From Chloroflexota bacterium (GTDB lineage Bacteria > Chloroflexota > Dehalococcoidia > Bin125), in assembly GCA_026705025.1 (NCBI GenBank), contig JAPPBN010000045.1, positions 162,166 to 226,165 on the forward strand: 64,000 nucleotides of DNA, read 5' to 3'. The notes under the pieces were generated by a model. The model did not search any database and was not told where the DNA came from. It was given only the letters and a program-made list of their open reading frames with translations. Made by a program: the position numbers and the translations under genes. Below, in pieces: positions 24,064 through 61,346 of the stretch. Position 1 is the first letter of the stretch, and every line of letters starts with the position of its first letter.

Positions 24064-24871
24064 CGGGGTGGCCGGAGTCGTGACCAGCGCCGGCGACTCC
24101 GACAGTGCCGAAGCTGTCGTTTGCCTGCATAGCGTGCCCGGTTCCGGGCGCGAGTTCCAGTGGCTGCTGCCGGAGACTGCGAAGCTCGCGCGCTCGATCG
24201 CCTTCGACCTGCCGGGATTCGGGAGGGCCGACAAGCCACGTGACTTCCCTTACTCAATCGAGGGTTATCAGCAATGGCTCGCTCCGGCGATTGACGAGTT
24301 GGGGATTAGACGTGCGCACCTTGTCTTGCACAGCTTTCACAGCCAGACGGGGCTGATGTGGGCGGCGATGAACCCTGACCGGTGCGCCTCGGTCACACTG
24401 CTCGACGGCGGGATCCTCGAGGACTATCCGGGCAACCTGGTCGCCAACATCTGGCGCAAGAAGTACGCCGGCGAGATTCTGCAGTTCATCACCACCCGCC
24501 CAATGTTCAAGCTGTTCATGCGGCTGGGCAATCCTCGCGGCCTCAACCCGGAGTGGTTGGATGAGCTCATCACTGAAGACGACCGAGCCACGCGCCGCGT
24601 GACGCTGGAGCTCTACCGCAACACCAACTTCGACGACGCGAAGATCCTGCGCCAGGCACTCGCGCCGCGCGACGTTCCAGCCCTCGTCATCTTCGGCAGG
24701 AACGATCCGTTTATCAGCTGGCGCTATGCCGAGCGCCAGCGGGAGACGTTCGCGGACGCCGATATCCACGTATGGGACGACTGCGGCCACTTCCCCCACG
24801 TCCAGCATCCGGAGCGGACGGCGGAGACAGTGACCGCGTTCCTGCAGACCGTGGTCGGGTCGGCTGGCTAG
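24029..24871 (+). CDS. Alpha/beta-hydrolase fold protein
   Basis: HSVPGSG oxyanion region, nucleophile elbow LHSFHSQTG (G-x-S/H-x-G variant), C-terminal …DDCGHFPHVQ… His region. There is no in-frame ATG after the upstream stop, so the start is GTG at 24029 (GGAG 9 nt upstream) or GTG at 24068. The track start at 23747 is rejected. Confidence 0.72.
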   Translation: MSSLRESRLSIDGVAGVVTSAGDSDSAEAVVCLHSVPGSGREFQWLLPETAKLARSIAFDLPGFGRADKPRDFPYSIEGYQQWLAPAIDELGIRRAHLVLHSFHSQTGLMWAAMNPDRCASVTLLDGGILEDYPGNLVANIWRKKYAGEILQFITTRPMFKLFMRLGNPRGLNPEWLDELITEDDRATRRVTLELYRNTNFDDAKILRQALAPRDVPALVIFGRNDPFISWRYAERQRETFADADIHVWDDCGHFPHVQHPERTAETVTAFLQTVVGSAG

Positions 24872-26205
24872 TCGGTCGCTCCCAACTCGACAGCGAGGTT
24901 GGCCGTCTTCTTCATCTGTTCGAAGCGTTCCATCTGCTCGCGAGCGCGTTCTTCGGCGCCTTCGTGGTGGAAGTCGGACTCGCTTTGCGTTTCGCTGGCG
25001 ACGACATCGAAGCCGTACGGACCGTAGGTCGGGATGTCGTCGTCGGAGAGTTCCGCCATCATCTCGTTGCGCTCGGTCTTGCGCTTGAACGCTTCCTCGA
25101 TGTACGGCGCGAGCTCTTCCTGCTTCTTCGCCTCTCGTTCTGCCTCGAACTCCTTGAATTCGGGCATCACATCGCGGGCAAAGATCTCGAGTGACTCGCA
25201 GATGTGTTCGTGGCGGTTGTTGCCGGCTTGCTGGATGAAGACCGACTGGTCGACGCCGCAGTCGGAGAAGATGCGCAGATGCTCGCGCAGCTCGTCAGGC
25301 GTGCCGATGCCGCCCTCGCCGCCCTGCGGCGCCCAGGTGTCGCGCACATGCTCCCAGGCCTTCCAGATGTTGGTCCGGCCCGGCTTGTGCATGCCGGCGG
25401 CGTAGTGGTGACCCAGCGCATATTGGAAGAAGCGGAAGCCGTCGCCGCCGCGGGCCTCGGCCTCGGCCGCGTCCGGGTGAACCGAGAACGACGAAACCAT
25501 CGCGATGTTCGCGTTGACCGAGTGTCCAATCGGCACGCACTCGGTCTTGATCGTTTCGTAGTAGTCGTTGACCCAGTGTTCGGCCTCAGCCGGGTCGATG
25601 AATGCGAAGGTCAGGGCGCCGATTCCGAGCTTGGCCGCGAGGTGGATGGTGTCGCGGTTGGAGCAGGCGACCCAGAGCGGCGGGTGCGGCTTCTGCACCG
25701 GCTTGGGCACGACGTTGCGCGTGGGCATGGAGAAGTACCGGCCCTCGTATCCGGGATACGGGTTCATGGCCAGCATGTTGGCGACCTGCTCGACGGTCTC
25801 GAGCCACATCGAGCGGCGTTCCTCGGGGTTAATCCGATAGCCCTCGAGCTCGGCTCGCGAGGCGGACTCGCCGGTGCCGAAGTCGACTCGGCCGTTGGAG
25901 ACGAGGTCGAGCGTGGCAATCCGCTCGGCCACGCGCGCGGGGTGGTTGTAGCCCGGCGGCATGAGCACGATGCCGTGGCCCAGGCGGATGTTCTTCGTCC
26001 GCTGCGACGCAGCGGCGAGGAAGACCTCGGGCGCGGAGGAGTGGGAATACTCCTCGAGGAAATGGTGCTCGACCTCCCAGGCGTGGTCAATGCCCAGGTT
26101 GTCCGCGAGTTCGACCTGGTCCAGCGCGTCCTGGAAGAGTTGCTGTTCCTGTCCCTCGCTCCATGGCTTGGGCAGTTGGTGTTCGTAGAAGATGCCGAAT
26201 TTCAT
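24868..26205 (-). CDS. LLM-class flavin/F420-dependent oxidoreductase (long form, 445 aa)
   Basis: Luciferase-like monooxygenase barrel (MKFGIFYEHQLP…GIDHAWEVEHHF…) with a long acidic C-terminal extension. Confidence 0.8.
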   Translation of the reverse strand: MKFGIFYEHQLPKPWSEGQEQQLFQDALDQVELADNLGIDHAWEVEHHFLEEYSHSSAPEVFLAAASQRTKNIRLGHGIVLMPPGYNHPARVAERIATLDLVSNGRVDFGTGESASRAELEGYRINPEERRSMWLETVEQVANMLAMNPYPGYEGRYFSMPTRNVVPKPVQKPHPPLWVACSNRDTIHLAAKLGIGALTFAFIDPAEAEHWVNDYYETIKTECVPIGHSVNANIAMVSSFSVHPDAAEAEARGGDGFRFFQYALGHHYAAGMHKPGRTNIWKAWEHVRDTWAPQGGEGGIGTPDELREHLRIFSDCGVDQSVFIQQAGNNRHEHICESLEIFARDVMPEFKEFEAEREAKKQEELAPYIEEAFKRKTERNEMMAELSDDDIPTYGPYGFDVVASETQSESDFHHEGAEERAREQMERFEQMKKTANLAVELGATD

Positions 26206-26239
26206 ACGCGACTCCGTTTCGTGTCGGGTTGGATTGAGT

Positions 26240-26923
26240 CTACGAGACGACGACGATTTCTCGGCCCTGGAGGATCACCGTGGCCTCCGGATCGATCAGC
26301 GGCGGGAAGGGATCGCCCGGCTCGTCGGAGGGCGGTATGCCCTTGAGCGCCGACTCGGCGTCCGTGTACCAGAGTTCGGCGACGCCGTCCCAGGGCCCGC
26401 CCTCGACGCCGTGATTGGCGTGCGAAGTGGTGTAGCGCAGGCAGCGGCCATCGGCGCGGGCGATGCTGTTGGCGACCCTTGGCGAATGGCCGTCGCTCCA
26501 GGCTGCGAACAGTTCTTCGCGCGTGACGCCCTCGCCCATCTTGACGAATGCCACCCACTTGCAGGCGTCATCCGGCGGCTCCGAGTCGACGATGATGTTC
26601 TCGGTCGTGAACAAGCCGTCTGTTGTCGGCTCGATCAGATCGCCGAAGCCATCGACCCCGCGCAACGCGCCTCGCTGTTCGCCAAAGGCCTGGTTGAAAT
26701 GTTCGAAGTCGCGGAACCAGAGTTCGGCGACTCCGTCGTAGGGCATCTCGTCGGTCGCCGGCGGTCCGCCGAGCGATCCGGGATTTTCGAAGAAGGTGAC
26801 GCAGTAGCGGACGGGCTTGGCCAGGTTGGCGACGTGCGGTGCGTGGATGCACTGCCAGAACTCGTAGAAGGTGTCGCGGTCGACGCCTTCTTTCTTCGTG
26901 ACGGGAACGATCCATTTCAACAT
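26240..26923 (-). CDS. Tandem EthD/Dabb-like domain protein
   Basis: Two repeats of the EthD-like pattern (…DGVAELWFRDFE… and …DGVAELWYTDAE…); 227 aa. Co-oriented with the downstream LLM gene. Confidence 0.7.
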   Translation of the reverse strand: MLKWIVPVTKKEGVDRDTFYEFWQCIHAPHVANLAKPVRYCVTFFENPGSLGGPPATDEMPYDGVAELWFRDFEHFNQAFGEQRGALRGVDGFGDLIEPTTDGLFTTENIIVDSEPPDDACKWVAFVKMGEGVTREELFAAWSDGHSPRVANSIARADGRCLRYTTSHANHGVEGGPWDGVAELWYTDAESALKGIPPSDEPGDPFPPLIDPEATVILQGREIVVVS

Positions 26924-27565
26924 CTTGCGCTCGCTTTCAGTGGCGCCGGTCCAGTCGGCTCTGGGCGGATTCTAGTGCCTGTTCGGCGCGGCTGATTTTG
27001 AGTTTTCAGGTTTGAGCAGAATTTTTTCTTCGGACCCGCGCCGGCCCTGATCTCCAGTGTTTTACCGGAGATCGTACGTTTCGGGTTTCAGGTTTTTTCA
27101 GGCTTCTTCAGGAATTTCAGATCCGATTTGTTCGGGTCTGTTCGATCCTGTTCGGTGCTGTCCGGTCGCCGGCGGCCGGATCCTGTCCGGTTCGGGCTTG
27201 TCGGGACCCATGCTGGAAGGGAGCGAGGTCGCGCCGGCGATCATTGAATTGCCGCTGATCGCGTGTTCGGATCGTTCGATCGTGTTCGGTCCTGTTCGGT
27301 CTCGTTCGGCACGGGGCAGTTCGATGCGGACGGGTGTCGGCAGGATATGTCGGTTGTGGCAGGGGTCGGGACGGTTGACGATCTCGCGGCGGGGCACTGG
27401 TCTGTCCTCTCACACACTCTGGCTCAGCTTCAAGAGGTTCGTGCAGAATCAATCAACATGCGCTGCGGTCGTGGGACCATCATATACGCACATACGTGCT
27501 TGTCCAGACGTGTCGTATTCGGCGCTTCTGAAGCGCCGGGGCAGTCCACGGGGGAAGGGTTTGGA
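26924..27565. repeat. 640-bp non-coding region with 10-bp-phased degenerate direct repeats (TTCAGG and YTGTTCGG families), AT-richer than its surroundings
   Basis: Three 10-bp-spaced repeat arrays: three TTCAGG units about 27085-27115; YTGTTCGG/TCCGG units from about 27125 to about 27215; and gtGTTCGGat cGTTCGatcg tGTTCGGtcc tGTTCGGtct cGTTCGGcac at about 27261-27310. The only ORFs here are low-complexity and overlapping. Confidence 0.5.
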
Positions 27566-28930
27566 CTAGCGAACCGCCACAAGCTGTTGGCTCACTTCAC
27601 GAGCTCGCTGAGCCTGGCTGCGGGCGATCTCTGCGCAGGCGCCGGTGTATGTTGCCGGGTCCAGCAACTGATCGAGTTCAGCTTCGGACAAGTGCTGGCG
27701 AACCTCTCGGTCGGCGATCAGCAGGTCGCGGAAGGCGACCTCCTGCACGGCGGCGTCCTGCGCGTGTTCGTAGACGACGTCGTGGGCGCGCTGGCGACCC
27801 ACTTTCTCGCCCAGCGCCAGCATGATGCGCTCGCTCATGATCAGCCCGCCGGAGAGTTCGAGATTGGCTCGCATCCGTTCGGGTCGTACGTCGATGCCGT
27901 CGAACAGCAGGATCATCCGCGCGAGGATGTCGCCGACCAGTTCAATGGATCCTTGAACGACGCGCTCGACCATGACGCTGGTCGATCCGTCGGCTTCATG
28001 TTCGGTGCGCATCGCGTCGAGCGCCAGCGGGAACAGGGTCGTGACCTGGGCTGCGGCCGCGCGGATGTCCTGAGAGAGCTTCGGGTTGCGCTTCTGCGGC
28101 ATCGTGCTGCTGCCGACGGTGCCCGGCGGGACCGGTTCCTCGATTTCGCCGAATTCGGGCTTCATCAGGGTGTAGGTCTCGTCGGCGATCTTGCGGCACG
28201 TTGCGGCAAGCATCGCAAGGATCGCGGCATATTCGGCGTGGTGGTCGTGGCTGGTGCGGCCAGGCACGGGCATGGGCAGGAGGTCCAGATGCTTCGCCAT
28301 GCCGGCCTGGACATCCAGTCCGGGCGCGCCGAACGATGCCAGACTGCCCGCTGCGCCGCCCAGCATGGCAACGAAGACGCGCGGCTCGGCATCGTGTAGG
28401 CGTTCGACATGACGGCAAAGCTCGTCGATCCAGGCGCCCACCTTGTAGCCGAATGTGGACGGAACGGCGTGCTGGCCGTGTGTCCGGCCGGCGCAGGGGT
28501 CGTCGGCATGTCGCTCGGCGATTGGCGCGAGCAGTGACAACACCTGACCGATCTGGCCGAGGATGATCGAATGAGCCTGGCGCAGTTGCAGGATGTCGCC
28601 CGTCTGGGTGATGTTCTGGGTCGTCGCACCCCAATGGACATAACCGCCGACTTCTCCGCCGAGTATCCGGTCGAGCTCCCAGATCAACGGCACCAGTGGG
28701 TGCGCCGTCACGGCCAGGCCGGCCTCGATGTTGTCGACGTCGAGTAACTCGAGCCGGCAGTGATTGGCAATCTCAACCGCAGCGTCGGCGGGAATCACGT
28801 CGAGTTCCGCCTCGGCGCGGGCCAACGCTGCCTCAACGTCGAGCCAGGCCTGCCAGCGAGCTTCGCGGGTGAACAACTGACGGATTCCCGGATCGGGGAC
28901 TCGGGCGGCGGTCGGTCGGTGCTGCATCAT
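27566..28930 (-). CDS. Fumarate-lyase superfamily enzyme (3-carboxy-cis,cis-muconate cycloisomerase / adenylosuccinate-lyase-like)
   Basis: Signature GSSTMPQKRNP (class II fumarase/aspartase family loop) and the surrounding fold; 454 aa. Exact substrate cannot be assigned. Confidence 0.8.
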   Translation of the reverse strand: MMQHRPTAARVPDPGIRQLFTREARWQAWLDVEAALARAEAELDVIPADAAVEIANHCRLELLDVDNIEAGLAVTAHPLVPLIWELDRILGGEVGGYVHWGATTQNITQTGDILQLRQAHSIILGQIGQVLSLLAPIAERHADDPCAGRTHGQHAVPSTFGYKVGAWIDELCRHVERLHDAEPRVFVAMLGGAAGSLASFGAPGLDVQAGMAKHLDLLPMPVPGRTSHDHHAEYAAILAMLAATCRKIADETYTLMKPEFGEIEEPVPPGTVGSSTMPQKRNPKLSQDIRAAAAQVTTLFPLALDAMRTEHEADGSTSVMVERVVQGSIELVGDILARMILLFDGIDVRPERMRANLELSGGLIMSERIMLALGEKVGRQRAHDVVYEHAQDAAVQEVAFRDLLIADREVRQHLSEAELDQLLDPATYTGACAEIARSQAQRAREVSQQLVAVR

Positions 28931-50488: not shown

Positions 50489-50523
50489 GGGTGCTCCGAT
50501 TCAGATCTTGCGGTGTTGGCAGT

Positions 50524-51912: not shown

Positions 51913-51954
51913 GTTCAGTCCTCAGCGGGGTCTGGGCGTTCTCGTTGTTCGATC

Positions 51955-52005
51955 TTGGACGATTTTGTGCGATTTTGGACGATTCGGGACGGTTGTTGGA
52001 CGACT
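51955..52005. promoter_or_regulatory. Three direct repeats TTGGACGAYT spaced about 20-21 bp apart, upstream of fumC
   Basis: ttggacgatt at about 51955, ttggacgatt at about 51975, ttggacgact at about 51996. They lie in the 114-bp gap between the mdh stop and the fumC start, in phase with two helical turns; a candidate operator array. Confidence 0.35.
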
Positions 52006-52026
52006 TCGGCCGGTGGATGTCCGGGA

Positions 52027-59738: not shown

Positions 59739-61346
59739 TTAGCGCGGTTCGAGACGTCCCCACCCGCCGCCGCCCGGGGTTTCAACGCGGATCACGTCGC
59801 CAGGCTCCACATTGATCGTGATCTTGCCGGGCAGCTTGCGGCGCACCGGCCGTCCGCTGGCGGAAGTCGTTTCCAGGCTGTTGCGACCTGGTCCTCCGGG
59901 CTCGCCGCCCTGTGATCCCCAGGGCTGCTGGGTTCGTCGCTCAGTGATGAGCGTCAGTTGAGCGGATCCAAGGAACTGGGTCCGGCGAATCAAGCCGTGT
60001 CCCCCACGATGCCGGCCGCTCCCGCCGGATCTCGGCCGGATGCTGTTCTCGACGACGCGGAGGGGATAGGCCAGTTCGAGGGCCTCGGCCGGCGTGTTCA
60101 GTGTGTTGGTCATGTGTGAGTGCGCGGCGTCGAGGCCCTGTCCCTCCGGACCGCCGCCCAGTCCGCCGCCCGACGTTTCGTAGTACGCCCAGGGCTGACC
60201 GTTGCGAGGGTCGATCCCGCCCGCCGTGAGATTGTTCATCGTTCCCGACGAGGCCGCCGGCATCCGCTGCGGCAGCAACTGATTAAACGCACCCCAGACG
60301 GTGTCGACGATGCGCTGCGAAGTCTCGACATTGCCGGCTGCAACCGCAACCGGTGATTGAGCGGCCACAACGGATCGCTCGGGCAGGGAGAAGGTGATCG
60401 GCCGGAAGAGTCCGGAGTTCATCGGGGTGTCGGGCGGCAGCAGGCAGCGGATCACGTAGTAGCAGGCCGACCGGGTGACAGGGGCCACGGCGTTGATCGA
60501 GGCGGCCCGTTGCGGGGCACTGCCGGAGAAATTGAAGTGGGCGCGATCCTCCGACAGGATCAGCTTGAGTCTGATGGGAACCGGTTCGGGCGAATGTCCG
60601 TCGTCGTCCAACGAGTCACTGAATTCCCACGTCCCGTGCGGCAACTGCGTCAGCGCTGCACGCGTCAGCCGCTCTCCGTAGTCAAGTAATGCCTTAGTCG
60701 TCCCCAGATAGCTGTCGTCTCCGTAGTCGCGATGCAGGTCGGCGATCCGGCGTTCGCCCAATCGTTGCGCGGCGATCTGGGCATTGAAATCGCCGCGCCG
60801 TTCGTCGGGTGTTCGCACGTTGCGCAGGATCAGGTCCATCGCCTCTTCGACGAGGTCGCCGGCGCGATAGAGGCGGATCGGCGGGATCACGATCCCTTCC
60901 TGGATCAACTCGCGTGCGACCGGCATCGAGCCGGGCGCCATGCCGCCGATGTCGGCCTGATGAGCACGGCTGGCGACGTACCCGATCGGCTCGTCGCCGT
61001 CCGCCGTGTCGTGGGCGAAGACCGGCGAGACCATGGTCACGTCGGGTAAGTGGGTGCCGCCGAGGAACGGGTCGTTGAGGATGGCCAGGTCGCCGGGCCG
61101 CCAGGGCGCCAGACGCTCGACGGCACGAACCGACTCCTGCATGGCGCCCAGGTGGACGGGGATGTGAGCAGCCTGCGCGAGCAACTGGCCTTCCCGATCG
61201 AAGACCGCGCAGGAAAAGTCGGCGCGTTCCTTGATGTTTGGCGAGAGCGCAGTATGGCGAAGCGCGGCCCCCATCTCTTCGGCGATCGAACTGACCAATG
61301 AGTCGAGAATGGCGAGCCGCGCAGGGTCAATGTTGACATCTGTCAT
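59739..61346 (-). CDS. Hydantoinase B / oxoprolinase family protein
   Basis: HyuB family pattern (…DPFLGGTHLPDVT…, …ASRAHQADIGG…). ATG at 61346 preceded by GAAGG; the N-terminal extension in the track ORF is rejected. Confidence 0.85.
   Translation of the reverse strand: MTDVNIDPARLAILDSLVSSIAEEMGAALRHTALSPNIKERADFSCAVFDREGQLLAQAAHIPVHLGAMQESVRAVERLAPWRPGDLAILNDPFLGGTHLPDVTMVSPVFAHDTADGDEPIGYVASRAHQADIGGMAPGSMPVARELIQEGIVIPPIRLYRAGDLVEEAMDLILRNVRTPDERRGDFNAQIAAQRLGERRIADLHRDYGDDSYLGTTKALLDYGERLTRAALTQLPHGTWEFSDSLDDDGHSPEPVPIRLKLILSEDRAHFNFSGSAPQRAASINAVAPVTRSACYYVIRCLLPPDTPMNSGLFRPITFSLPERSVVAAQSPVAVAAGNVETSQRIVDTVWGAFNQLLPQRMPAASSGTMNNLTAGGIDPRNGQPWAYYETSGGGLGGGPEGQGLDAAHSHMTNTLNTPAEALELAYPLRVVENSIRPRSGGSGRHRGGHGLIRRTQFLGSAQLTLITERRTQQPWGSQGGEPGGPGRNSLETTSASGRPVRRKLPGKITINVEPGDVIRVETPGGGGWGRLEPR

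What the first reader, a model, noticed from the sequence alone, without database searches (positions are those of the whole stretch)
26924..27565. 640-bp non-coding island with 10-bp-phased degenerate direct repeats
In an otherwise tightly packed genome this long gap is AT-richer and low-complexity. It carries arrays of short repeats (TTCAGG ×3; then YTGTTCGG/TCCGG units; then GTTCGG ×5) whose unit spacing is almost exactly 10 bp, one helical turn. Helically phased repeats put identical motifs on one DNA face, typical of cooperative protein-binding arrays, strongly bent DNA or nucleoid-protein nucleation sites. The region lies upstream of the EthD-LLM operon and could also encode a structured 5' leader or small RNA. 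I cannot tell which of these from sequence alone.
Basis: seen in the sequence. Interest (0 to 1): 0.55.

Follow-up and report, generated by a model that had tools for sequence, protein, structure and literature searches.

The report
Clade-specific non-coding insert with 10-nt repeats
The 640-bp gap is a real, non-coding, roughly 590-bp insertion that only a few related sponge-type Chloroflexota carry between two operon genes; its 10-base repeats are slippage-prone mini-arrays that recur in another gene spacer of the same clade, and no specific protein-binding role could be shown.

Summary
Lag-10 self-similarity has z=5.5, and the gap holds the strongest period-10 segment in the 64 kb.

The gap is not an old intergenic region. 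In 27 of the 29 related loci compared, the lyase stop lies about 10-60 bp (typically about 31 bp) from the EthD start. Only the window and five related lineages carry a 496-642 bp insert (window 26988-27580).

The insert is non-coding. Substitutions spread evenly over the three codon phases, and indels are 1, 10, 20, 35 and 144 nt long.

Read on the operon-sense (minus) strand, the repeats are units (C/T)CGAACAnnn and CCTGAAAnnn. Units are gained and lost by repeat-mediated events. The same CGAACA unit has expanded in the mdh-fumC spacer of the clade, again in sense orientation. Sense RNA across the arrays is exceptionally unstructured and shows no covariation.

The EthD-proximal part (27000-27120, phased A-tracts) is the most conserved stretch and has the highest predicted DNA bend in the window.

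Best reading (confidence 0.4): slippage-generated C/A-rich arrays inside a transcribed intercistronic leader. Helically phased protein binding remains a live rival. Nothing matched Rfam, Pfam or NCBIfam. This is moderately interesting and is a new variant of a known kind.

The parts
26988..27580 (-). Clade-specific insertion of about 593 bp that split the ancestral lyase-EthD junction. It is bounded on both sides by a direct repeat of the target, GCC(G)AACAG(C).
   Evidence: Alignments with insert-free relatives and with insert-bearing lineages L005, L169-L173 and L177.
27566..27580 (-). New lyase C-terminal tail (VAVR plus stop) supplied by the insertion. It replaces the ancestral ...ESAQS/N stop.
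   Evidence: The tail L(V/A/L)(A/V)VR marks all insert-bearing lineages.
27479..27506 (-). Promoter-like element TGGACA-16-TATGAT enclosing the palindrome GCACGTATGTGC (27488-27499). The -10-like TAnnnT is kept in all six lineages; the -35 is not.
   Evidence: (10/12 match) and alignment columns 118-143.
27395..27412 (-). Invariant block TGAGAGGACAGACCnGTG, a Shine-Dalgarno plus GTG start that opens a 51-102 codon ORF (27098-27397) with no codon-level constraint.
   Evidence: invariant columns; matches the RBS pattern of fumC and other genes; no codon-phase or synonymous/non-synonymous signal; one hit only, from the same clade.
27265..27323 (-). Array 2: five to six units of (C/T)CGAACnnnn at a 9-10 nt period.
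   Evidence: There is a one-unit (10-nt) indel between lineages, and the array is fused with array 1 in L173.
27130..27195 (-). Array 1: CGAAC/CGGAC units at a 10 nt period. It is paralogous to array 2 (71% over 56 nt, 134-bp offset).
   Evidence: L005 has a 35-nt deletion here between ACAGGATC repeats.
27078..27122 (-). CCTGAAA(n) array with phased A-runs. Its TGA triplets fall in all three reading frames. It is the most conserved part of the insert (alignment A2 columns 521-540 invariant among the four lineages compared).
   Evidence: Predicted bend is above the 99th percentile.
27049..27073 (-). Inverted repeat GATCTCC-N11-GGAGATC. The 3' arm and loop (AAAACACTGGAGATC) are invariant. Changes in the 5' arm are not compensated.
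   Evidence: (I11).
27000..27039 (.). A/T-tract segment with the highest predicted intrinsic DNA bend of the whole 64-kb window.
   Evidence: 29.6 degrees at 27017, against a window mean of 7.6, sd 4.3 and a 99.9th percentile of 25.3. The wedge parameters were recalled from memory.
26959..26987 (-). Relic of the ancestral lyase 3' end (GCCGAACAGGCACTAGAATCCGCCCAGAG). It is no longer translated but is still strongly conserved.
51934..52012 (-). Second locus of the same phenomenon: 10-nt periodic, U-poor repeats in the mdh-fumC intercistronic spacer. Orthologues L174 and L176 carry 4-5 CCGAACAnnn units here.

Best explanation
The island is a clade-restricted insertion of about 590 bp of non-coding DNA into the tight lyase-EthD junction of a conserved gene string (lyase, EthD, luciferase-like monooxygenase, all on the minus strand).

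Its '10-bp phased repeats' are degenerate minisatellite arrays. Read in the operon sense, the units are (C/T)CGAACAnnn and CCTGAAAnnn. They grow and shrink by slipped-strand or unequal recombination between units. I infer that the island is transcribed with the operon, or from its own weak promoter. The arrays would then make a C/A-rich, U-poor, almost structure-free stretch of mRNA.

The most likely role is generic rather than sequence-specific: an unstructured intercistronic leader or spacer that ribosomes can load on and translate through. It has a conserved RBS plus GTG, an unconstrained ORF, and stops in all three frames within the CCTGAA array. The EthD-proximal, A-tract-phased part may add intrinsic DNA curvature in front of EthD.

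**Shown:** insertion status, non-coding status, repeat-mediated unit turnover, recurrence of the unit at mdh-fumC, and lack of predicted RNA structure.

**Inferred:** transcription, translation of the short ORF, and any benefit of the arrays.
For: **Insertion**
- 27 of 29 related loci compared have a lyase-EthD junction of about 10-60 bp, typically about 31 bp.
- Six lineages (window, L005, L177, L169/170, L171/172, L173) carry 496-642 bp with a shared architecture.

**Non-coding**
- Variable columns are even over the three codon phases in every ungapped block (for example 18/17/17), whereas the flanking genes give 0.09/0.04/0.53.
- Synonymous/non-synonymous counts are alike in all three frames.
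- Indels are 1, 10, 20, 35 and 144 nt long.
- There are no Pfam or NCBIfam hits, and only one same-clade hit among 1.84 billion proteins.

**Slippage**
- The L005 35-nt deletion lies between ACAGGATC repeats.
- There is a one-unit 10-nt indel in array 2.
- L173 lacks 144 nt between the two arrays.
- Arrays 1 and 2 are paralogous.

**Recurrence**
- The mdh-fumC spacer is 54, 102, 114 or 134 nt long in different lineages. It carries one to five CGAACA units, always in sense orientation and directly upstream of the fumC RBS.

**Unstructured sense RNA**
- 80-nt MFE is -9 to -12 kcal/mol over 27261-27420 and -7 to -10 in the mdh-fumC arrays. The window-wide mean is -27, sd 5.7, and the 99th percentile is -14.
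- The antisense strand is ordinary, at -15 to -32.

**Other**
- The RBS-like 18-mer is invariant and matches the RBS of confident genes.
- Period 10 is the only non-multiple-of-three period that recurs in the window (3 of the 4 such periodic segments found at the 0.6 threshold; the fourth has period 8) and the only one found in 365 kb of relatives.
- Known analogue: C/A-rich ACA elements upstream of the SD enhance translation (PMC3879156).
Against: - There are no expression data, so transcription through the island is an inference from gene order.
- The island arrays lie 170-400 nt upstream of the EthD start, too far for a classical enhancer or standby site for EthD.
- ACA is not enriched beyond base composition.
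- In L169, L171 and L173 the first 100 nt after the RBS fold about as well as average sequence.
- The same core motif arising at two loci, and cores being more conserved than spacers, hint at sequence-specific recognition, which a generic-spacer model does not need.
- The insert evolves at only 0.5-0.9 times the third-codon-position rate. That is mild constraint the model explains only for some blocks.
Confidence: 0.4

Rival explanations
1. DNA-level regulatory array. On the plus strand the units read TGTTCGG-N3/4, like the 10-11-bp direct-repeat operators of winged-helix (OmpR/PhoB-type) response regulators. A protein would polymerise along one face of the helix and, together with the curved A-tract segment, control an EthD-LLM promoter created or displaced by the insertion.
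For: - The period is exactly 9-10 bp over up to five consecutive units.
- Cores are more conserved than spacers (9/67 against 24/65 variable, p=0.002).
- Two indels are 10 and 20 bp, whole helical turns.
- The EthD-proximal 230 bp are the best conserved part and hold the strongest predicted bend in the window.
- TGTT-type hexamer direct repeats are typical of this regulator family (my own knowledge).
Against: - Unit number is not conserved: two arrays in most lineages, one in L173, and a 3.5-unit deletion in L005.
- The mdh-fumC arrays range from one to five units.
- There are no other phased sites in the 64-kb window or in about 530 kb of related loci.
- No convincing -35/-10 sits next to the arrays (and inspection).
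- The CGAAC and CTGAA sub-arrays are 4 nt out of phase.
- The core/spacer contrast is also expected from neutral unit homogenisation.
Confidence: 0.2
2. Purely neutral DNA. A tolerated insertion of unknown origin in which slippage makes and breaks short arrays. Conservation would reflect limited divergence time and concerted evolution, with no function at all.
For: - Presence or absence varies among closely related lineages, and the flanks are mosaic.
- All larger indels are repeat-mediated.
- Overall divergence is close to the third-codon-position rate against L171 (0.273 against 0.31).
- Metagenomes hold many unrelated 10-bp CCGAAC-containing minisatellites.
Against: - There are invariant blocks of 15-20 nt across six lineages whose third-codon positions differ at more than 50% of sites: the RBS-GTG block, CCTGAAAAAACCTGAAACC, and AAAACACTGGAGATC.
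- About 500-640 bp has been retained in all six lineages despite the usual deletion bias of bacteria.
- The same unit occurs at two loci in the same orientation.
Confidence: 0.2
3. Sequence-specific RNA platform. The 10-nt spaced YC/CGAACA units in the sense transcript would be bound by an oligomeric RNA-binding protein, for example as a Rho-utilisation site or a protein sponge, to set polarity or translation of the downstream cistron.
For: - Sense RNA is C-rich (37%) over G (24%), U-poor (11%) and nearly structure-free over about 80-150 nt.
- Arrays are in sense orientation at both loci.
- Regularly spaced C residues and C>G composition are the classical rut description (my own knowledge).
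Against: - G is not strongly depleted.
- The spacing is 10 nt, not the 11-13 nt usually quoted for rut sites.
- GGA motifs (CsrA-type) are not conserved.
- Copy number is variable.
- No candidate protein was examined.
Confidence: 0.1
4. A small protein gene. The conserved RBS plus GTG at 27397 would start a real 51-102 aa, fast-evolving, disordered protein. One MAG annotation calls it as a gene (P0180).
For: - The RBS-GTG block is invariant and typical of genes in this genome.
- The ORF is open in all six lineages.
- RNA around the start is unstructured in the window lineage.
Against: - There is no codon-phase bias (14/14/16) and no synonymous excess over the other frames.
- 1-nt and 10-nt indels put the C-terminal halves in different frames between lineages.
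- ORFs stay open in two or three sense frames simply because T is rare and the CCTGAA array stops every frame.
- There is no homologue outside the clade.
Confidence: 0.05
5. Remnant of a small mobile element (MITE-like) that transposed into the lyase 3' end and made a target-site duplication.
For: - A 9-12-bp direct repeat GCCGAACAG(C) flanks the insert.
- Other spacers of related genomes carry palindromic insertions.
Against: - There are no terminal inverted repeats.
- No second copy occurs in the window, in about 600 kb of clade loci, or in plasmid or viral collections.
- The flanking repeat is itself the array unit, so it may be the seed of the repeats rather than a duplication made by a transposase.
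Confidence: 0.05

Closest known systems
Bacterial intergenic minisatellites / VNTR arrays made by slipped-strand mispairing
   Same: Head-to-tail short units. Unit gain and loss and inter-array deletions between lineages. Deletion end-points sit in repeats.
   Different: The units are degenerate. Copy number is stable within the population sampled (seven contigs compared base by base, out of 22 found, have identical inserts). The same unit recurs at two loci, and the orientation relative to transcription is fixed.
C/A-rich and ACA translational enhancer elements upstream of Shine-Dalgarno sequences (GcvB targets; Yang et al. 2014, PMC3879156)
   Same: The RNA is C/A-rich and unstructured with repeated ACA-containing units. 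In the mdh-fumC spacer the arrays sit directly upstream of the RBS.
   Different: The island arrays are 170-400 nt from the EthD RBS. ACA is not enriched beyond composition. The organism is a distant phylum, and no activity data exist.
Direct-repeat operators of OmpR/PhoB-family response regulators (for example PhoP, ArcA and PHO boxes with 10-11-bp units)
   Same: Hexamer direct repeats (TGTTCG on the plus strand) at a 10-bp period, up to five in a row.
   Different: Copy number is not conserved. No regulon-like distribution, promoter geometry or cognate regulator was identified.
Phased A-tract curved DNA upstream of bacterial promoters
   Same: A3-A6 runs occur every 10 bp in 27000-27122. 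This is the highest predicted bend of the window, and it lies upstream of the EthD start.
   Different: No promoter has been mapped. The curvature is predicted only. The CGAAC arrays themselves are not strongly curved.
Rho-utilisation (rut) sites
   Same: C>G composition, little structure, regularly spaced C-containing motifs over about 80 nt, located in an untranslated intercistronic stretch.
   Different: The period is 10 nt rather than 11-13. G depletion is only moderate. Rho dependence is untested.

Membership tests
Tandem-repeat (minisatellite/VNTR) array | Head-to-tail copies of a short unit, beyond chance | tested here: met
   TRF finds period-10 arrays. Lag-10 z=5.5, the top segment of the 64 kb. 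Phased pairs number 5 against 0.46 expected.
Tandem-repeat (minisatellite/VNTR) array | Copy-number change between lineages through repeat-mediated events | tested here: met
   Indels of 10, 35 and 144 nt have end-points in repeat units. The mdh-fumC spacer is 54-134 nt long.
Tandem-repeat (minisatellite/VNTR) array | Hypervariability within a population | tested here: not met
   The seven contigs compared (of 22 found carrying the same EthD protein, from several samples) have an identical insert.
OmpR/PhoB-type direct-repeat operator | Hexamer direct repeats at 10-11-bp centre-to-centre spacing | tested here: met
   GTTCG spacing is 10, 10 and 9, 10, 10, 10.
OmpR/PhoB-type direct-repeat operator | Defined position relative to a promoter, and conserved site number in orthologues | tested here: not met
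   No adjacent -35/-10. Unit number differs between lineages.
OmpR/PhoB-type direct-repeat operator | Further sites elsewhere (a regulon) and a cognate regulator | tested here: inconclusive
   None found in 64 kb plus about 530 kb of clade loci. Whole genomes and regulators were not searched.
Phased A-tract curved DNA | A-tracts in phase with the helix and predicted curvature far above background | tested here: met
   27000-27120 reaches 24-30 degrees against a window mean of 7.6, sd 4.3. A phased-A6 control gives 35 degrees. The parameters were recalled from memory, so the ranking is more trustworthy than the absolute values.
Phased A-tract curved DNA | Anomalous gel mobility, and a location upstream of a mapped promoter | not testable with these tools
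   Needs gel assays and transcription-start mapping.
Structured RNA (Rfam family, riboswitch or leader) | Match to a covariance model, or covariation-supported structure | tested here: not met
   No Rfam match of note at E<=10. The RNAalifold covariation term is -0.69 kcal/mol. The arrays are predicted unpaired.
Protein-coding gene or pseudogene of a resident gene | Codon-phase substitution bias, indels in multiples of three, homologues, and a gene at this site in relatives | tested here: not met
   (no phase bias). Indels of 1, 10, 20 and 35 nt. (no family). Relatives have only a short junction, about 10-60 bp and typically about 31 bp.
MITE / small non-autonomous transposon | Terminal inverted repeats and multiple genomic copies | tested here: not met
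   No TIR at the boundaries. It is single-copy in all the sequence held.
MITE / small non-autonomous transposon | Target-site duplication | tested here: inconclusive
   A direct repeat GCCGAACAG(C) sits at both edges, but it equals the array unit.
C/A-rich (ACA) translational enhancer | C/A-rich unstructured element just upstream of the SD of the regulated gene | tested here: inconclusive
   Met for mdh-fumC. Not met for the island arrays relative to EthD (170-400 nt away). ACA is not enriched beyond composition.
Rho-utilisation site | C>G, unstructured, about 80 nt, regularly spaced C | tested here: inconclusive
   C is 37% against G 24%. MFE is above the 99th percentile. The period is 10 nt, not 11-13. 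Rho dependence is not testable here.

The most novel reading that the evidence does not exclude
The (C/T)CGAACAnnn arrays would be recognition platforms for a clade-specific oligomeric nucleic-acid-binding protein, acting on double-stranded DNA or on the sense transcript. This protein would set expression of the downstream cistron. The arrays would then expand under selection in intercistronic spacers (lyase-EthD, mdh-fumC and presumably others), making an undescribed cis-regulatory repeat class in uncultivated sponge-type Dehalococcoidia.
Probability: 0.15. Interest if true: 0.6.

Novelty: new variant of a known kind. Interest (0 to 1): 0.35.

Why it matters
If the arrays are only slippage products in a tolerated insertion, the result is a tidy natural history. 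It shows how a tight operon junction in an uncultivated Chloroflexota lineage acquired and kept about 600 bp of non-coding DNA, and how 10-nt units turn over.

It matters more if the recurrence of the same unit, in the same orientation, at two unrelated spacers reflects recognition by a factor. That would define a cis-element class for a clade with no genetics, and it could be tested directly with existing sponge metatranscriptomes and closed MAG genomes.

Practically, the finding also flags spurious ORF calls. Public annotations of related assemblies call a 168-aa ORF on the strand opposite the operon (L171/L172) and a 102-aa sense ORF (L177), but the region shows no coding signature.

Tried and rejected
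- **Metagenome scan.** None was orthologous.
- **Viral and plasmid searches.** A viral-contig scan for the invariant 22-mer and blastn against plasmids found nothing.
- **RNA structure.** Rfam at E<=10 gave nothing relevant. RNAalifold gave no covariation.
- **Protein families.** Pfam and NCBIfam on the three long ORFs gave nothing. phmmer against 1.84 billion proteins found only a same-clade ORF.
- **Coding hypotheses.** Rejected by codon-phase and indel tests. This includes a possible short ORF in the relic lyase frame.
- **Hairpin after the lyase stop as a terminator.** There is no U-run, it is not conserved, and its changes are not compensated.
- **GATC clustering.** There are 10 GATC sites in 360 bp, but GATC is generally frequent (9 per kb), other windows reach the same count, and the sites are not conserved between lineages.
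- **CsrA-type GGA motifs.** Not conserved.
- **T-poor composition as a marker.** Not unusual in this genome.
- **Monophyly of insert-bearing lineages.** Not recovered. The flanks are mosaic, so the order of events, such as whether one array or two is ancestral, cannot be set.
- **More of the same genome.** Another 10 kb had no further array. One look-up failed.
- **Literature.** Searches found no description of such repeats in Chloroflexota.
Full report
**Observation**

The gap 26924-27565 is bounded by two minus-strand genes. EthD is at 26240-26923 and a Lyase_1/ADSL_C gene is at 27566-28930. A luciferase-like monooxygenase follows EthD. GC drops to 0.54-0.60 in the gap.

- GTTCG(G) at 27130, 27140 and 27150 (27160 as GTCCGG) and at 27190.
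- GTTCG(G) at 27265, 27274, 27284, 27294 and 27304, and at 27319.
- TTCAGG at 27087, 27097 and 27107 (27117 as TTCAGA).

The statistics support the periodicity:
- Lag-10 self-match has z=5.5 against dinucleotide shuffles.
- 27086-27325 is the strongest lag-10 segment of the 64 kb.
- All phased GTTCG-N5-GTTCG pairs (5 found, 0.46 expected) and TTCAG-N5-TTCAG pairs (2 found, 0.04 expected) in the window lie here.

Read in the sense of the flanking genes, the units are CCGAAC and CCTGAA.

**What the region is**

A scan of species-representative genomes with the EthD protein returned 30 orthologous loci, all from Chloroflexota/Dehalococcoidia MAGs. Several record names suggest sponge metagenomes; that is my inference.

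Of the 29 that could be compared, 27 have the lyase reading frame ending about 10-60 bp (typically about 31 bp) before the EthD start. The exceptions are L005, which carries the insert, and L029, whose upstream gene is only 46% identical.

Only L005 (95.3% identical to the window over 12.7 kb) shared the long gap. I then used the altered lyase C-terminus (…L-V/A/L-A/V-V-R instead of …ESAQS/N) as a marker among cluster members and homologues. This recovered four more insert-bearing lineages:
- L169/170, with a 612-bp gap.
- L171/172, with a 633-bp gap.
- L173, with a 496-bp gap.
- L177, with a 640-bp gap.

The island is therefore a derived insertion of about 593 bp (window 26988-27580).
- It replaced the last codons of the lyase.
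- It left the ancestral 3' end (GCCGAAC…CTAGAATCCGCCCAGAG) stranded next to EthD.
- Both edges carry GCC(G)AACAG(C) as a direct repeat.
- No other copy exists in the window, in about 600 kb of clade loci, or in the plasmid or viral collections.
- There are no terminal inverted repeats.

A neighbour-joining tree of the flanks does not unite the insert-bearing lineages, and the identities of the two flanks are discordant. Recombination has therefore moved alleles around the island.

**Coding or not**

Long ORFs exist on both strands (99-172 aa), and two public annotations of related assemblies call one. Several tests argue against coding:
- Across four to five lineages, variable columns are spread evenly over the three phases in every ungapped block. 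The flanking genes give 0.09/0.04/0.53.
- Synonymous/non-synonymous counts are the same in all frames.
- Indels are 1, 10, 20, 35 and 144 nt long.
- Pfam and NCBIfam are silent.
- phmmer against 1.84 billion representative proteins finds only the same ORF in a sister lineage.

The ORFs stay open because the sense strand is T-poor, and because the CCTGAA array supplies TGA in all three frames. The region is non-coding in the evolutionary sense.

**Anatomy in the sense direction** (alignments)
- New lyase tail and stop.
- A variable stretch.
- A palindrome GCACGTATGTGC, with a -10-like TAnnnT kept in all six lineages and a poor -35.
- A variable stretch with a 20-nt indel.
- An invariant TGAGAGGACAGACCnGTG, which looks exactly like the RBS and start of confident genes here.
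- About 300 nt of T-poor sequence holding two paralogous CGAAC arrays.
- The CCTGAAA array, which is the best conserved block.
- An inverted repeat GATCTCC-N11-GGAGATC, whose loop and 3' arm are invariant and whose 5' arm changes are uncompensated.
- An A-run segment.
- The relic lyase end, still conserved but with no coding signature.
- The EthD RBS.

**Dynamics of the repeats**

Every larger indel is repeat-mediated:
- L005 lost 35 nt between two ACAGGATC repeats.
- Array 2 differs by exactly one 10-nt unit between lineages.
- L173 lacks the 144 nt between arrays 2 and 1, so it has a single array.
- The two arrays are 71% identical over 56 nt.

Within the window's own population the insert is invariant: the seven contigs I compared, of the 22 that carry the identical EthD protein, have identical inserts. 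This is not a contingency locus.

**A second locus**

At the 0.6 self-match threshold the window holds four periodic segments whose period is not a multiple of three. Three have period 10: the two island arrays and 51934-52012. The fourth has period 8 (61080-61129). In 365 kb of relatives, period 10 is the only such period found.

The segment 51934-52012 is the mdh-fumC intercistronic spacer. In relatives this spacer is 54, 102, 114 or 134 nt long. L174 and L176 carry four to five units of the same CCGAACAnnn repeat, in sense orientation, directly upstream of the conserved fumC RBS. The short form has a single TCGAACAAG.

The unit is therefore a recurrent, expandable feature of co-directional spacers in this clade.

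**RNA and DNA properties**

- Sense RNA over the arrays is extraordinarily unstructured. 80-nt MFE is -9 to -12 kcal/mol in the island and -7 to -10 at mdh-fumC. The window mean is -27, sd 5.7, and the 99th percentile is -14.
- The antisense strand folds normally.
- RNAalifold finds no covariation and Rfam finds nothing.
- A wedge-model curvature calculation puts the highest bend of the window at about 27017. It puts the CCTGAA array above the 99th percentile and the CGAAC arrays only moderately high. The parameters were recalled from memory.

**Constraint**

- The insert diverges at 0.066, 0.236 and 0.273 from L005, L169 and L171. Third codon positions diverge at 0.126, 0.375 and 0.31.
- Pentamer cores vary less than spacers (9/67 against 24/65, Fisher p=0.002), and both vary less than the rest of the insert (46%).
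- Caveat: unit homogenisation would give the same contrast without selection.

**Interpretation**

I rank first (0.4) a slippage-generated, C/A-rich, structure-free intercistronic leader that is transcribed with the gene string.
- It may be translated from the conserved RBS-GTG up to the three-frame stops.
- The curved, conserved EthD-proximal part may act on EthD expression.
- The closest analogues are intergenic minisatellites and C/A-rich ACA translational enhancers (PMC3879156). However, ACA is not enriched beyond composition, and the island arrays are far from the EthD RBS.

The rivals:
It is supported by the period and core conservation. It is weakened by variable unit number, the absence of other sites and the lack of promoter geometry.
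- Pure neutrality (0.2). It is weakened by invariant 15-20-nt blocks and by retention in six lineages.
- A sequence-specific RNA platform or rut site (0.1).
- A small protein gene (0.05).
- A MITE remnant (0.05).

**Verdict**

This is a real feature, correctly seen and reasonably interpreted in part. It is a clade-specific non-coding insertion carrying unstable 10-nt arrays of a unit that recurs elsewhere in the clade. It belongs to no curated family, and its function is unproven. Interest is 0.35.

Noticed in passing
window 51934-52012; L174:467-600, L176:499-600, L175:547-600: The mdh-fumC intercistronic spacer carries 10-nt periodic, U-poor repeats. Its length is 54, 102, 114 or 134 nt in different lineages. 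L174 and L176 hold 4-5 CCGAACAnnn units directly upstream of the fumC RBS.
   Followed up: yes
L175:1990-2088, L176:1990-2277, L180:1790-1886 (the fumC-PNPOx spacer; 35 bp in the window at 50489-50523): In some relatives this spacer has grown to 97-288 bp through G/C-rich palindromic, REP- or MITE-like insertions (…GGGGGAGATGCCGAAGGCAGA…). Spacers in this clade seem generally prone to small insertions.
   Followed up: no
L001, L007 against window 24868-28930: The flanks are mosaic. The L007 lyase is 95.8% identical to the window's but its EthD only 86%. L001 is the reverse (EthD 95%, lyase 88.9%). Insert-bearing lineages are not monophyletic in a tree of the flanks, which suggests homologous recombination with breakpoints near the island.
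   Followed up: partly
L171:4425-4931 (minus strand of the locus), L172:4425-4931 and L177:1501-1809: Public gene calls of related assemblies place a 168-aa ORF (on the strand opposite the operon) or a 102-aa ORF (sense) inside the island. Neither shows any coding signature, so they are probably false gene calls.
   Followed up: yes
L163 and L168 (contig ends 530 and 511 bp upstream of EthD; about window 27434-27453): Two independent short-read assemblies break inside the island, upstream of array 2. The repeats may be hampering assembly.
   Followed up: no
window 27040-27400: There are ten GATC sites in 360 bp (window mean 3.25 per 360 bp, sd 1.9). GATC is generally frequent in this genome (9 per kb) and the sites are not conserved in the other lineages (4-10 per island).
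   Followed up: yes
window 61080-61129: This is the only other non-coding-type tandem periodicity in the window: period 8, unit GCCAGGCC, about 3.6 copies.
   Followed up: no
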